A DNA stretch of 64,000 bases, taken from Halarcobacter sp. (GTDB taxonomy: Bacteria; Campylobacterota; Campylobacteria; Campylobacterales; Arcobacteraceae). A program made the position numbers. Where the stretch lies: the NCBI GenBank assembly GCA_963676565.1, contig OY781089.1, forward strand, positions 2,976,001-3,040,000, given 5' to 3'. This document shows positions 15,001-24,000 of this stretch, piece by piece; the stretch's first letter is position 1, and each line of letters starts with the position of its first letter.

Positions 15001-18000
15001 TGCTAATTCTGTAAAATCTCCACCTATGCTATATGTTCCATCTGGATTTATAGTAATATCTAAATCATCCAAGGTGATTATTTCATTGTTATCTGAATCT
15101 ACTGGACTATCTATTACTGTTATTCCATTTTCTGCTACATGGAAGGTATGTGTATCATTTACATCATCATCACTTACTGTTAATTTCCCAGTGAAAATAT
15201 TGTTCCCATCTTCATCTAACAGTACTCCGTTTTGGTTTGTATCTGCTGAGTCATCATCGTTTGTTTCGTAAACTATATCATTTGCCAACTCATCTTCTAC
15301 AGTATTATTTATATATATTTTTGCAGCTTCAATAAAATCTTGGAAACTAGAATCATCATATAACCAATTTGGATCAAAATAAGCCATCAATGGCATTGTA
15401 GAATAAATAACTGTTCCTGAACCATATTCATAAGAGAAAGCTACAACTTCATTACCATTTCCAGAAGTTAATAAAATTTTAGCTCCATCAGGTAAAGAAC
15501 TACTTTCAAAAGCCCCATGAATTGATGAACTTCCACCATCTAATGAAGAATCATCTAAATTTCCCAATGTACCATTCGACAATTCAACACCATCAGGACC
15601 AATATTAACATCAGCATTACTGTAAGACGAACTTACTAAAGTCTGTGTCAAACCAGGAAGAATAGAATTTGCTTCATATGGACTTCCGTCATTTATAATT
15701 AAAGTCATCCCATTATAAACTGAACTATGTATTGAAGCCAAATTATTTGTAAACTCAGAATTAGAACTATATTTATCAATATATAAAATATTTAGACTTT
15801 CAATATCTTGCGCTGTTAAATCATCTAAATCTTTTGATGAAAATCCACCTAATGATAATATCTCCTCTTGAATAACAGTTCCTGAACCTTCTGCCATATC
15901 ATAATAACCAACTAATCCCGACGAAACAAATTGATTAGGAATATCTGAAATTCCACTATTACTACCATTTAAATCCAAATTTTCTACTACTGGTTGGTCA
16001 TTTGTTCCTGTGATTGTAAATGTGATAGTTTTATGTTCAGATTCTTCTGGTTCATTGTTTACATCACCTAACCCTGCTCCACTATCATCTACTGCATAGT
16101 ATTCTATAGTTACAGTTGCAGTTTCTCCTACAGCTAATGAAGTAAAATCGCCACCTAAAGAATATGTACCATCAGTATTAATTGTTAAATCTAAATCAAT
16201 ATCATCTATTGATAATGTTGAATCATCAGCTAAATTTCCAAGTTCAAGATTTACTAACATTGGTTCTTGATCTGTTCCAATATTGTAGTTTCCTTCTTCT
16301 AAACTTGCCATAAAGAACTCATGAGTGTCATTATCGTCATCATCAGTTACTGTTAAAGTCCCTTCAAAAAGATTGTTAACTTCATCATCTCTTAATATTT
16401 CATTTCCATTTGTATCCTGAGAATCTACATCGATTGTTTCATAGACAACTTTTTTTCCTGAACCTAATGAATATGTAAAGTCATCCATTGCCCAATGTGA
16501 ACCACTTCCATTATCTTCTTGAACATCTGTTCCTGTTGGAGTATTATAAACTATTAATTGGTCTATATTATCCCAATTTAATTCGATTAATGTTGGTCCA
16601 TTATAATTTATTTCAATAGAATCAGAAGTATAAATAAGTTGACCGTTTAAATAACCTTCAAAAACTACATCTTGAGTTGTATACCAAGAAGATGTCATGT
16701 ATGTAGATTCAAAGGTAACAACTTCAGTAAAAGAAAAAGAAATTGGTGAAACTCCATTAGCATTATAAGCCACATTATCTCCACTAACTATACCGTTAAA
16801 ATATCCACTTGACGTAAGGTTGCTTCCATCTAGAACATATAAATTACTATCGTAAATAATTGAATCATCATCATTTTGATTTAATTCATCTTCAAAATCT
16901 TGAACTACTTGATCTTCACCTGAACCATTCAAATTCACATCAGTTACAACTGGAATATCATTTGTACCTTCAACTGTTAGAGTTACTGTTGCAATATTAC
17001 TTGTTGCACCTTCGATATCAGTAGCAAAATAATCAAAACTTACAGTTGCATATTCTCTTAAACCTAAGTCATTAAAATCACCACTAATTTCAAATGTTCC
17101 ATCTGGATTTAAAACTACTAATATATCATCATCTAGAACTGTAATCACACCATTTTCAGTTCCATCTTCATTGTAACTTGTAACAACAAGAGAACCTTCT
17201 ATTGGAGTAAATGTATGAAGTCCAATATCTTCTTCATCTTCATCAAATACAGTTAAAGTACCAGTTATGATATTTTTATCCCCAGCTCCTTCTTCTCCTA
17301 ATACTTCAATATCTTCTAAAGAAACATCAAATACTACTGGAGCAAAGTTTCCTATAATTGCGGCTGTAGGATCAAAAGTTCCTGCACCAGGAAGTCCATT
17401 TAATCTACCTGCTGTATCATCACTATTTGTACCATCTAAATCACCAGCACCTGCTGGATTGGCTGTTTGGTCTGAACCTGTTGGTGCTCCACCAGCTGCT
17501 GCTGCTTCAAGGTCATCTATTGTAGTCATTGTTGCTAATTGAGTAGGTCCTTCAAATACTTCAAATACTGGATTATCAGTTTGGTTTGTAAGTAATATTT
17601 GAGCTAGGCCTTTAAGAATAAAAAAGATCTCATTACCATTTGCATCAGTAAATGACACTCTTACATCATCATTATTTTCTAAAATTTCTAGTTTTGTTTG
17701 ATCATAGCTTGCACCATTTTCAACAAAAACTTTTAAAGAACTAATTCCATCTAAAATCAATTCACCATTTTCAGTTTTTTGTAAACTAGCTAAATCAACC
17801 GTAATTCCACCATTTTGGACATTTATACCTTCATACATGATAACTCCCTTTGAATTCAGTTTTATATAATACAAGTCTACTAGTAGAAAGTCTCAAATAA
17901 GTCTCAAAAGTGACTAAAAGTAACAAAGAGATCAAATGTAACTACTTTGCAACTAAATAGTTTAAAACAAAAAATATCAATAACTTATAAGTTTATTTTC

Positions 18001-21000: not shown

Positions 21001-24000
21001 ACAATCTACATACACAAAAAACAGTTGGTATATATAGACTTGTTATGAAAACAGGATCAGACAACTTTAGAAGTTCAGCTATACAAGGAATAATGAAAAG
21101 AATAAAAGCAAAAGGTATTCCTGTAGTAATCTATGAGCCAAATTTAGACGAAGATGATTTTTTTAATTCAAAGGTTATAAAAGACTTTGAAGAATTCAAA
21201 AAATTATCAAATGTGATAGTTGCAAACAGGCTTGATGAAAATCTTTCTTGTGTTAAAGACAAAGTCTACACTAGAGATTTATTTAGTAGTGATGATTAGG
21301 AAGACAAAATGCAAGAACTAAAAAAAGAGATACTAAAATCAATAGTACCAAGAGCAGTATTATTTCCTATGAATGAAAAAGCAAAGGCATCTATTGCAAA
21401 TGAAAAGCTTATCTCTATCACAAGATTCCCTTATAAAATAGGAAGAGAATCAAGAATTAGTAAAAACGAAAGAGGTTTCTTTGTAAAGCTTAGACTTTTT
21501 GATGAAAACACTACACCTAACAATGACATATATCTTATAGACAATGACGAACTTCTACAAATATCAAAAGAGCATTTAGAAATATCAATAGAAAACAATA
21601 GTTTCTTTGTGATAGATAGAGGAAGTATGAATGGTACAACTATCAATAATGAAACTATCGGTGGAAACAGAAAAATCACAAAAAAAGAGATCAAAGATGG
21701 AGATAGAATCAAAATTGGTTCAAAAGAATCATCTTATGAGTTTCAATTTTTAATTTTAGAAATCTAATAATCCAAATAAATTTGCAAAACTGTATATAAA
21801 TTAATATCAATTGTAACAAAAATGAAACTTTTTTTTGATAAGATATACTCTTATTTTTTATATTAAACTAATGTCTTATTTTATTTATTAATAATTAAAT
21901 TTTAAAATTTATTATTAAATGAGACATTTTTGAGACATTTTTTAGATAAAATATCCTCTTATTTTTTACAAGGAATCAGATGAACATAGCAATAGCAGGG
22001 ACAGGATATGTAGGACTGTCAAATGGACTACTACTTTCTCAACATAATGATGTAATAGCTTTAGATATTATCCCAGAAAAAGTTGAGATGATAAACAATG
22101 GAATTAGTCCTATTGAAGATAAAGAGATTCAAGAGTATTTAACTAAAATACATGAAAACCCTGATTCATTTGAAGGAAGTTTTAAAGCTACTTTAGACAA
22201 AGAAGAAGCTTATAAAAATGCTGACTATGTAATTATCTCTACACCAACAGATTATGACCCTGAAACAAACTATTTTAATACAAAATCTATTGAGTATGTT
22301 ATTGCTGATGTTTTAGAAATAAATCCTAATACTACTATGGTAATAAAATCAACTATTCCTGTTGGATATACAAAAGGCATAAACGAAAGATTTAATACAT
22401 CTAACATAATCTTCTCACCAGAATTTTTAAGAGAAGGAAAAGCTTTATTTGACAATTTATATCCAAGTAGAATAATAGTTGGAGAACAATCTGAGAGAGC
22501 TACTATATTTGCAAAGCTTTTAGAGCAAGGAGCTTTAAAAAAGAACATTGATATATTATTTACTAATTCAACAGAAGCAGAAGCAGTTAAGCTTTTTTCA
22601 AATACATATCTAGCTATGAGAGTAGCTTATTTTAATGAATTAGATTCATATGCAGAAGCACATGATTTAGACAGTAAGCAAATCATTGAAGGGGTTGGAT
22701 TAGATCCAAGAATTGGAAGTCATTATAATAATCCTAGTTTTGGATATGGAGGTTATTGTTTACCTAAAGATACAAAACAATTACTTGCAAACTACAAAGA
22801 TGTACCATCAAATATAATAGAAGCAATTGTAAATGCTAACTCAACTAGAAAAGACTTTGTATCAAACTCTATAATAGAGAAGCTAAATCTTACTTCTGAA
22901 AATCCAGATAATCTACATACACAAAAAACAGTTGGTATATATAGACTTGTAATGAAAACTGGATCAGACAACTTTAGAAGTTCAGCTATACAAGGGATAA
23001 TGAAAAGAATAAAAGCAAAAGGTATTCCTGTAGTAATATATGAACCAAATTTAGACGAAGATGATTTCTTTAATTCAAAGGTTATAAAAGACTTTGAAGA
23101 ATTCAAAAAATTATCAAATGTGATAGTTGCAAACAGGCTTGATGAAAATCTTTCTTGTGTTAAAGACAAGGTTTATACTAGAGATTTATTTAGTAGTGAT
23201 GATTAAATGAAAATATTAGAAATTAATCTAACAAGGAAAGCTAATATAAGAACAAAATCTTATGCCAAATATTATTGTGAAATTAATTCTATTCAAGATA
23301 TAGAATTTATTTTAGAATTTTCAAAAAAAGAAAACCTAGAAATTCAAATTCTTGGAGATGGAACCAATATTTTGTTTAGTAAAGAATACTATCATAATGT
23401 TATATTTATAAAACTCAAAGATTCATTCAATTATTTTAGAATAACAGATAAAACTGTAGAAATAGGTGCTTCACATTCTCTTATGAAAGCTGGTAAACTT
23501 TTATCTAAAAATGGATATGAAAACTTCATATACATGTCTTTGATCCCTGGTTCATTAGGTGGTGCAGTTAGACAAAATGCAGGTACTACAAAAGAAGGAG
23601 AAATCAAAGATTCTTTTATTTCATGTATTGTTTATGACTTAAAAGAAAAAAAAGAAAAAGAATTATTAATTGAAGATATGAAATTTTCTTATAGAAATTC
23701 AATTATTCAACAAGAAAAGAATAGATATTTAGTTTTATCTGCAAAGTTTAAATTAGAGAATAAAACAACTAATTTAATTGAGCTTAAAGAATTCATCAAA
23801 ACTAAACAAAAAGCCAAAATCAATAAAGAACCTAAAGGATATACTTTTGGTTCAACTTTCAAAAGTCATTTACAAGAAAAACCCGCTTGGTGGTATATAG
23901 ATCAAGTGGGATTGAAAAATAGTATTATTGGTGGAGCAAAAATTTCTGAAATTCATGCAAACTGGATTGTTAACTATAATAATGCATCTGCATCAGATAT

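What a model noticed while it worked through the whole genome (the two positions that open the first line are those of the whole stretch)
17890..21947. A direct-repeat box shared by giant T1SS adhesin and exopolysaccharide promoters
An 11-bp-period direct repeat lies 40-65 bp before the 4249-aa and 4110-aa adhesin genes (267917, 2993890), the EPS gene ugd (2997920) and four signalling genes (850643, 1390824, 2105390, 2403735), suggesting one response regulator couples adhesin and matrix expression.
Evidence so far: 6 promoter regions versus 0.02 expected; site list; 15 exact matches versus 0 reversed in five Halarcobacter; relative copies before an adhesin (G047) and the g02324 orthologue (G104).
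(Added by a program. Inside this text positions count along the whole contig: contig position 2,976,001 is position 1 of the stretch shown here. "Call 12" and the like, gene names such as g00115 and contig names such as C1 are that model's own, and its searches are not shown. The text may have been shortened before it was handed on; [...] marks where a part breaks off. The agent that wrote the report below was given it as the finding of a first reader that could run no searches.)

Follow-up and report, generated by a model that had tools for sequence, protein, structure and literature searches.

The report
Two look-alike activator boxes, biofilm genes
A short repeated DNA signal really does sit at the same spot in front of this marine bacterium's giant adhesin and polysaccharide genes, but it looks like two near-identical docking sites of a well-known regulator type, probably read by different proteins rather than by one master switch.

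Summary
The repeat is real. GAGAC-N6-GAGAC occurs at 6 intergenic sites (0.04 expected). All six lie on the coding strand, exactly 10 nt before a TAnnnT -10 hexamer, the geometry of this genome's own Pho box. In relatives there are 40 matches and 0 for the reversed control. It is an OmpR/PhoB-type activator site replacing -35.

One regulator for all sites is doubtful, because two forms separate. GAGAC-T marks adhesin-1 promoters in 34 of 34 loci read (11 genera), beside a linked OmpR regulator. TGAGAC-A is almost genus-restricted (11 of 11 versus 4 of 109). It marks the EPS-cluster head, hemerythrin, kinase and lipoprotein genes.

TGAGAC-A also lies reversed before a 136-aa receiver-less regulator (RHH-like dimer plus OmpR winged helix) in 24 of 24 genomes that have it. 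That protein is my favoured reader of this form; a canonical regulator (RR4) is a close rival. The window's adhesin site is intermediate, so adhesin-2/EPS coupling stays open.

No binding or expression data exist here. The scan had noted other such boxes in this genome, but not this one. Conventional mechanism, undescribed regulon.

The parts
17890..17905 (-). Direct-repeat box GAGAC-N6-GAGAC (TGAGACT form) upstream of adhesin 2
   Evidence: exact in G020 and G121, 1 mismatch in G056
17874..17879 (-). Predicted -10 hexamer TAGACT, 10 nt after the box
   Evidence: inferred, start site not mapped
5506..17838 (-). Adhesin 2, 4110 aa, T1SS-143/DUF5801 and VCBS repeats, with an AAAAG motif near the N-terminus resembling the LapG cut site (motif recalled)
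4779..5468 (+). RR2, OmpR-family regulator with a degenerate receiver, divergent from tolC; candidate reader of the adhesin-2 box
2..4643 (-). T1SS operon: tolC, LssB-type ABC transporter, membrane-fusion protein (cut by the window edge)
17938..17953 (+). Second box class GTAAC-N6-GCAAC facing galE (no -10 at 10 nt)
   Evidence: also in G121
18039..21767 (+). galE, galU, ugd1 and an FHA-domain gene
21813..21828 (+). GTAAC-N6-GAAAC box with -10 TAAGAT 10 nt downstream (upstream promoter of the EPS cluster head)
   Evidence: conserved in G121 and G131
21920..21937 (+). Direct-repeat box TGAGACA-N4-TGAGACA upstream of ugd2
   Evidence: heads the EPS cluster in G020, G121, G131 and probably G129
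21947..21952 (+). Predicted -10 hexamer TAAAAT, 10 nt after the box
   Evidence: inferred
21980..32178 (+). EPS operon: ugd2, murB-like, murA-like, wzx, two glycosyltransferases, wzy-like, wecG, wbaP
41370..41385 (+). GTAAC-N6-GTAAC repeat before wza-wzc
49979..49994 (-). GTAAC-N6-GTGAC repeat before the 1490-aa VCBS-repeat gene, divergent from RR3 (50046-50738)

Best explanation
The repeat is a docking site for OmpR/PhoB-family winged-helix dimers. Two half-sites one helical turn apart take the place of the -35 element, 10 nt before the -10 box, and recruit sigma70 polymerase. Position and strand are shown; activation is inferred. Two readers share the core. (1) GA[G/A/T]AC-T boxes at giant T1SS adhesin genes are read by the OmpR regulator encoded in the T1SS locus: RR1 (contig 276526) for adhesin 1, and RR1 or the local RR2 for adhesin 2. 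This is inferred from linkage across 11 genera. (2) TGAGACA boxes form a genus-level regulon: EPS cluster head, hemerythrin, a sensor kinase/REC-GGDEF operon, PAS-MCP, lipoproteins. Their most likely reader is the 136-aa protein at contig 2403818, an OmpR winged helix whose receiver is replaced by a ribbon-helix-helix-like dimer module. Forward sites would activate. Reversed sites over or beside -35 (its own gene, a chemotaxis operon in five genomes) would repress. Reader identity and sign of control are inferred.
For: Geometry: 6 of 6 sites. The pstS and pstC promoters have the same layout with a GTMAC half-site. One Sigma70_r2 match against 54 over-cut-off Trans_reg_C matches in the genome. 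Relatives: 40 matches versus 0 control; 71 versus 1 in 22 of 23 genus genomes after setting G133 aside. Adhesin-1 box: T at +5 of both halves in 34 of 34 loci read, second half GA[GAT]ACT in 33 of 34; 26 of these loci lie outside the genus. It is missing from the two adhesin-less loci whose gap was printed. A-form: A at +5 in 53 of 53 unique sites; exact 18-mer in 11 of 11 genus relatives and 4 of 109 others. The 136-aa orthologue (82-99% identity) is in 23 of 24 genus relatives and not found outside. It has the box reversed upstream in 24 of 24 with at most 1 mismatch in 14, and an invariant recognition helix. Model pLDDT 90 with an OmpR fold. Homodimer score 0.43 versus best control 0.00; the mark was reached by 20 of 30 solved pairs and 1 of 23 single chains; contact agreement at least 87%, partner pLDDT at least 85; interface residues 2-40 with strand-strand pairing. 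Likeness to solved RHH dimers may explain that pass. Precedent: H. pylori HP1043's 11-bp repeat replaces -35 and lies on the non-coding strand only at its own gene (PMC5253667, passages).
Against: No binding or expression data (one search found no usable RNA run). RR4 (contig 2105412) is also in 11 of 11 genus relatives with a conserved helix, is a canonical regulator, and the box sits between it and its kinase in five genomes. At the helix position that I align with PhoB's guanine-reading arginine (recalled), RR4 has Arg and RR1 Lys, but the 136-aa protein has Gln. RR1 is also in 11 of 11 genus relatives. G133 lacks all three candidates and the box, so it does not discriminate. Four genomes outside the genus have one TGAGACA site each without the orthologue, and in G016 such sites flank an RR2-like gene. 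The adhesin-2 site is nearly neutral between the two matrices (A-T = -2.4), and the kinase and PAS-MCP sites are weakly A. The A-set was hand-picked and its -1 T partly selected by the pattern; kin are not independent. RHH matches by sequence are all below threshold. Paralogues in genus g3 have a different, forward box of a word class enriched in G000 itself, so this family can be a mere target.
Confidence: 0.5

Rival explanations
1. Two readers as above, but TGAGACA is read by the canonical phosphorylated regulator RR4 (contig 2105412) or another genus-restricted OmpR protein. The 136-aa gene is then only its most conserved, repressed target.
For: RR4 is in 11 of 11 genus relatives at 63-74% with helix KRVRNLxSRLK. 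It is adjacent to its kinase, whose promoter carries the box in G000, G121, G040, G083 and G125, which would be positive feedback. G038 has both an RR4 homologue and a TGAGACA site. Its helix resembles RR1's and keeps the basic residue expected to read guanine (code recalled).
Against: No box was seen upstream of RR4, and none between RR4 and the next gene in G092, G071, G105, G110, G115, G120 or G056; it is degenerate in G020 and G099. Nine other genomes outside the genus have RR4 homologues at 44-50% and no exact TGAGACA repeat. The only universal site is at the 136-aa gene.
Confidence: 0.25
2. One reading: one response regulator, most plausibly RR1, reads all GAGAC boxes and couples both adhesins to the EPS operon and the signalling genes.
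For: Identical 5-bp core and geometry at all six sites. RR1 is in 11 of 11 genus relatives even where adhesin 1 is absent from its locus. Adhesin-2, kinase and PAS-MCP sites are intermediate. Adhesin 2 and the EPS head carry boxes together in G000, G020 and G121.
Against: +5 base is T in 34 of 34 adhesin-1 loci and A in 53 of 53 other sites. RR1 matches occur in 39 genomes outside the genus, of which only G038 has an exact TGAGACA repeat. RR1's helix has drifted in G056, G083, G120, G115 and G071 while their TGAGACA sites stay perfect. In G105 and G110 the adhesin-1 box has 3 mismatches beside perfect A-sites.
Confidence: 0.2
3. Not a regulator site: chance, the general 10-11-bp periodic promoter signal, a mobile repeat, or a methylation or restriction word.
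For: Many other 11-bp-period words are enriched in intergenic DNA of this genome. GTCTC is a known type IIS recognition word (recalled). G133 has 27 identical hits from a repeated element.
Against: GTCTC is neither avoided nor enriched (observed/expected 0.99). Spacers and flanks differ between sites, so it is not a mobile repeat. Spacing is fixed at 6 and 10 nt. Sites are conserved at orthologous promoters while neighbouring bases vary.
Confidence: 0.05

Closest known systems
E. coli PhoB pho box (PMC4415409 and PMC9934606, passages read)
   Same: Two 11-nt direct-repeat units, bound head to tail by an OmpR-family winged helix; activation or repression depends on position.
   Different: Half-site GAGAC rather than CTGTCAT; targets are surface and signalling genes. 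This genome's pst promoters use a GTMAC half-site.
H. pylori HP1043/HsrA site (PMC5253667, passages read)
   Same: Same phylum; 11-bp-spaced repeats replace -35; coding strand at targets and non-coding strand at its own gene.
   Different: TTTAAG half-site and housekeeping targets; HP1043 keeps a regulatory dimerisation domain of the response-regulator type.
Sulfurimonas SulR (PMC12936845) and Sulfurospirillum PceP (PMC7755780) sites, passages read
   Same: Campylobacterota OmpR regulators binding 5-bp repeats over the -35 region of linked operons, the model for RR1 at adhesin 1.
   Different: Half-sites TTACA and CTATW (PceP spacing 17); sulfur and organohalide metabolism.
C. jejuni PhosR and DccR boxes (sequences recalled; not shown)
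   Same: Recalled as 5-bp repeats with 6-bp spacers; the recalled PhosR half-site is one base from GAGAC.
   Different: No exact recalled PhosR box in this genome; no phosphate gene among the GAGAC targets.
Pseudomonas FleQ control of LapA and EPS (search listing only)
   Same: Functional idea of joint control of a T1SS adhesin and matrix polysaccharide; three LapG-like genes are present.
   Different: FleQ is an enhancer-binding AAA+ protein (own knowledge); here the sites are OmpR-type at sigma70-like promoters.

Membership tests
OmpR/PhoB-family activator box | Two direct half-sites at 11-bp period | tested here: met
   spacer 6 only
OmpR/PhoB-family activator box | Fixed strand and distance to a -10 hexamer, in place of -35 | tested here: met
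   6 of 6 at 10 nt; same layout at pstS and pstC
OmpR/PhoB-family activator box | Conserved at orthologous promoters | tested here: met
   34 of 34 adhesin-1 loci read; 24 of 24 at the 136-aa gene
OmpR/PhoB-family activator box | Bound by a winged-helix regulator and needed for transcription | not testable with these tools
   no binding assay; no usable RNA run
Pho regulon (PhoB/PhosR) box | Present at pst promoters | tested here: not met
   pstS and pstC carry GTMAC-type repeats, not GAGAC
Single regulon of one response regulator | One consensus and one co-distributed regulator for all sites | tested here: inconclusive
   T and A forms separate by target and by genus, but RR1 is in all 11 genus relatives and some sites are intermediate
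Canonical response regulator (for the 136-aa protein) | Receiver domain | tested here: not met
   only Trans_reg_C; 44-residue N-terminus with two helices
OmpR-type DNA-binding domain (for the 136-aa protein) | Winged helix fold | tested here: met
   Pfam PF00486 in 23 of 23 members; Foldseek to PhoP, YycF, RstA and PhoB domains
Ribbon-helix-helix module (N-terminus of the 136-aa protein) | Strand-helix-helix intertwined dimer with antiparallel ribbon | tested here: inconclusive
   predicted dimer interface 2-40 fits; Pfam DUF6290, NikA-like and RepB-RCR_reg hits, and ParD, HP0222 and AvtR hits, all below threshold; that these are RHH proteins is recalled
Sigma28-like motility regulon substitute | Box at flagellin and most chemoreceptor promoters | tested here: not met
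   not seen in the flagellin-family upstream regions printed; 3 of 21 MCP promoters within 1 mismatch of the wider RAKAC pattern

The most novel reading that the evidence does not exclude
A receiver-less RHH-OmpR fusion, dimeric without phosphorylation, acts as a genus-wide sessility switch. It activates EPS, adhesin 2, lipoprotein and c-di-GMP genes from forward boxes and represses a chemotaxis operon and itself from reversed boxes, in a bacterium with a single detected sigma factor. It would be the first characterised member of a sizeable undescribed family: 98 of the best 150 cluster representatives are 125-155 aa.
Probability: 0.25. Interest if true: 0.72.

Novelty: new member of a known kind. 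Interest (0 to 1): 0.45.

Why it matters
Transcriptional control in Arcobacteraceae is little studied; A. butzleri lacks RpoN and FliA (PMC2147049, passages), and in this genome only one sigma70-family factor was found beside about 55 OmpR-type proteins. The boxes give exact, testable sites for how giant adhesins and exopolysaccharide are switched on. They also show how look-alike paralogous regulators may be kept apart by one flanking base. The mechanism itself is textbook.

Tried and rejected
Pho box: rejected, the pst promoters use another half-site. Restriction or methylation word: no under- or over-representation. Mobile repeat: only G133's 27 identical hits behave so; they were dropped from counts (not tested as a transposase). 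Box tied to ugd itself: found in 1 of 29 relative ugd loci; it follows the EPS-cluster head instead. ugd duplication as source of the box: the 99% identity is confined to the CDS. Sigma28-substitute idea for the wider RAKAC class: flagellins and most MCPs lack it. g146816 as reader of the RATAC class: 7 of 120 relatives, not the RATAC-rich genomes of genus g3. G133 as a natural knock-out: it lacks all three candidates. Linking all regulators to local boxes automatically gave too few hits, and two regulators were missed by my ORF calls. ESM Atlas gave only the protein's own Trans_reg_C cluster. Literature searches showed no description of this motif or regulator; subscription papers and supplements were not seen.
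Full report
Observation. Both window sites are present. In the 3.34-Mb genome GAGAC-N6-GAGAC occurs 7 times, 6 of them intergenic; other spacers give 0-4. 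Expectation is about 0.04. All 6 read GAGAC on the coding strand, with the first G 57-67 nt before the ATG, and all 6 have TAnnnT exactly 10 nt after the second half-site against a background of 4.7%. The targets are adhesin 1 (4249 aa), adhesin 2 (4110 aa), ugd2, a hemerythrin, an ORF of about 106 aa without family, and a sensor kinase followed by a REC-GGDEF gene. Two weaker sites with the same -10 spacing precede a PAS/MCP pair and a lipoprotein-like ORF.

Kind of element. Two half-sites one turn apart in place of -35 is the layout of pho boxes (PMC4415409, passages) and of H. pylori HP1043 sites (PMC5253667, passages). The genome's own pstS and pstC promoters show the same 6 and 10 nt spacing with a GTMAC half-site. 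This is an internal control for the geometry and excludes GAGAC as the Pho box. One Sigma70_r2 match and 54 over-cut-off Trans_reg_C matches were found, and several other 11-bp-period words are enriched.

Relatives. Box plus -10 gave 40 matches in 27 of 120 family genomes and 0 for the reversed control. Mapping them to genes split them in two.

T-form. At adhesin-1 loci, which carry an OmpR regulator (RR1) divergent from tolC, a box was found in 34 of 34 loci whose promoter I could read, in 11 genera. T follows both halves in 34 of 34 and the second half is GA[GAT]ACT in 33 of 34. The script required a -10 at 10 nt, so that feature is selected, and G003's first half is poor. Not counted were six genus genomes whose locus lacks the adhesin, G004 and G037 (start not visible), G012, G119 and a second G024 locus. 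TGAGACT repeats also precede a regulator/giant-protein pair in G065 and G095 and a giant protein in G075.

A-form. In the genus a TGAGACW pattern gave 71 matches in 22 of 23 genomes and 1 control, after setting aside G133's 27 identical hits. In a hand-picked set of non-adhesin loci, excluding G000, G121 and G131, 53 of 53 unique sites have A at +5 of both halves and 27 of 53 have the -10 at 10 nt; the -1 T is partly selected. The exact 18-mer occurs in 11 of 11 genus relatives and 4 of 109 others. Targets include the kinase operon, hemerythrin, the 106-115-aa ORF, a 193-aa REC-like gene, a CsgG-family protein and other lipoprotein-like ORFs, and the head of the EPS cluster. For ugd itself only 1 of 29 relative loci has the box. 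The promoter module heads the cluster in G020, G121, G131 and probably G129, with ugd or a wecA-like gene first.

Scoring the G000 sites with the two matrices puts ugd2, hemerythrin and the 106-aa ORF firmly in A (+22), adhesin 1 in T (-17), the kinase and PAS-MCP sites weakly in A (+4), and the window's adhesin-2 site near neutral (-2.4). So adhesin 1 and ugd2 are probably not one regulon, while adhesin 2 could answer to either reader or to both.

Reader of the A-form. The 136-aa gene at contig 2403818 has orthologues in 23 of 24 genus relatives and only paralogues of 48% identity or less outside. In 24 of 24 genomes the box lies reversed, 28-29 nt before TATAAT in those I counted, with at most 1 mismatch in 14, and the recognition helix is invariant. 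HP1043 likewise has its site on the non-coding strand only at its own gene. The model has pLDDT 90, two N-terminal helices and an OmpR winged helix. The homodimer scored 0.43 against a best control of 0.00; that mark was reached by 20 of 30 solved pairs and 1 of 23 single chains. Contact agreement was at least 87%, partner pLDDT at least 85, and the interface is residues 2-40 with paired strands. This fits a ribbon-helix-helix dimer, but may reflect likeness to solved ones, and sequence matches to RHH families are below threshold. The short architecture is a family: 98 of the best 150 representatives are 125-155 aa and 59 of these match the N-terminal profile. One search showed no paper on it.

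RR4 (contig 2105412) is also in 11 of 11 genus relatives, is canonical, and has the box between itself and its kinase in G000, G121, G040, G083 and G125, though not in seven others. By a recalled PhoB recognition code its helix suits guanine better than that of the 136-aa protein. RR1 is in 11 of 11 too, but its helix drifts where adhesin 1 is absent, and of 39 genomes outside the genus with an RR1 match only one has the exact A-form. G133 lacks all three proteins and the box. Single A-sites in G016, G038, G059 and G073 have no orthologue of the 136-aa protein.

How it probably works. Shown: sequence, strand, spacing, conservation, and co-occurrence with candidate regulators. Inferred: a winged-helix dimer binds the tandem half-sites at -35 and recruits sigma70 polymerase to promoters that lack a -35 element. 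Also inferred: reversed sites over or beside -35, at the 136-aa gene and before an MCP gene in five genomes, repress. The adhesins are LapA-like in layout, with LssB-type ABC transporter, T1SS-143 repeats, an AAAAG motif and three LapG-like genes. A REC-GGDEF gene is among the targets, so a surface-attachment programme is plausible but unproven.

Known versus new. The element is a new member of the OmpR/PhoB box class, with close phylum precedents in HP1043, SulR (PMC12936845, passages) and PceP (PMC7755780, passages). The PhosR and DccR box sequences are recalled only; searches did not show them. Searches showed no report of this motif or regulon; subscription papers and supplements were not seen. 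The scan had no note on it elsewhere.

Verdict. Observation confirmed; interpretation partly supported. Two readers with the 136-aa protein for TGAGACA 0.5, two readers with RR4 or another 0.25, a single regulator 0.2, artefact 0.05. Interest 0.45.

Noticed in passing
G000 contig 62036, 147622, 816573, 834800, 1127230, 1732474, 2045609, 2132361, 2142528, 2452960, 2704457, 3169175: A third look-alike class, RATAC-N6-RATAC-N10-TAnnnT (1127230 is a RATAC/AAGAC hybrid), precedes MCP, hybrid kinase, HD-GYP, REC and BLUF genes and the TolC and MFP operons of the 5115-aa giant protein. The wider RAKAC pattern is enriched at signalling genes, 12 of 116 versus 18 of 1786; the families were chosen after seeing the hits. 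It is enriched in genus g3 and some g12 genomes. Reader unknown.
   Followed up: partly
window 17938, 21813, 41370, 49994: A GTRAC-type repeat class marks the galE, ugd2, wza and 1490-aa gene promoters of the island. RR3 (50046-50738) lies beside one, and similar boxes sit at RR3 loci in G006, G024 and G060.
   Followed up: partly
L175, L236, L239, L241, L242; L187, L240: Reversed TGAGACA boxes end about 14-20 nt before the -10 hexamer of an MCP gene whose G000 homologue heads an MCP-PAS-CheW operon (five genomes). In two genomes a reversed box abuts a RATAC box before a REC gene, suggesting repression or anti-activation.
   Followed up: partly
window 20073-21299 and 21980-23206: Two ugd copies are 99% identical over the CDS only; G131 and G121 also have two copies.
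   Followed up: partly
window 23207-25371: Divergent murB-like and murA-like genes lie inside the EPS operon, possibly for an enolpyruvyl or lactyl sugar.
   Followed up: no
window 41043-41264, 40163-41020, 32537-33454 (- strand): A 73-aa ORF with a twin-arginine-like leader precedes an HprK-related kinase; an NTP_transf_5 nucleotidyltransferase lies in the same island.
   Followed up: no
window 4779-5468 and 50046-50738: RR2 and RR3 receivers lack the acidic pocket (RR3 also has Glu at the phospho-site), so they look like pseudo-receivers, each beside a large repeat protein.
   Followed up: no
G000 whole genome: Only one Sigma70_r2 match (contig 1848006) against 54-56 Trans_reg_C matches; 11-bp-period repeats of several words (TGCTA, TACAT, GTTAA, GTACA, TTCAC) are enriched in promoters.
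   Followed up: partly
G000 contig 873167 and upstream of 876012: Pho-box-like GTMAC repeats with -10 at 10 nt before pstC and pstS.
   Followed up: partly
L195 (G133): 27 identical copies of a 17-mer lie in a repeated coding-looking element, probably an insertion sequence.
   Followed up: no
L366:7696-7736 (G016): Two GAGACT repeats face each other as an inverted pair between convergent genes.
   Followed up: no
G000 contig 81408, 1403936, 1790851: Three LapG-like peptidase C93 genes; both adhesins carry an AAAAG motif near the N-terminus.
   Followed up: no
L261:4513-5094 and L025, L029, L031, L042, L044, L050: A 193-aa atypical REC-like gene has perfect TGAGACA boxes in relatives but an AATAC/GATAC box in G000, a promoter that appears to have switched class.
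   Followed up: partly
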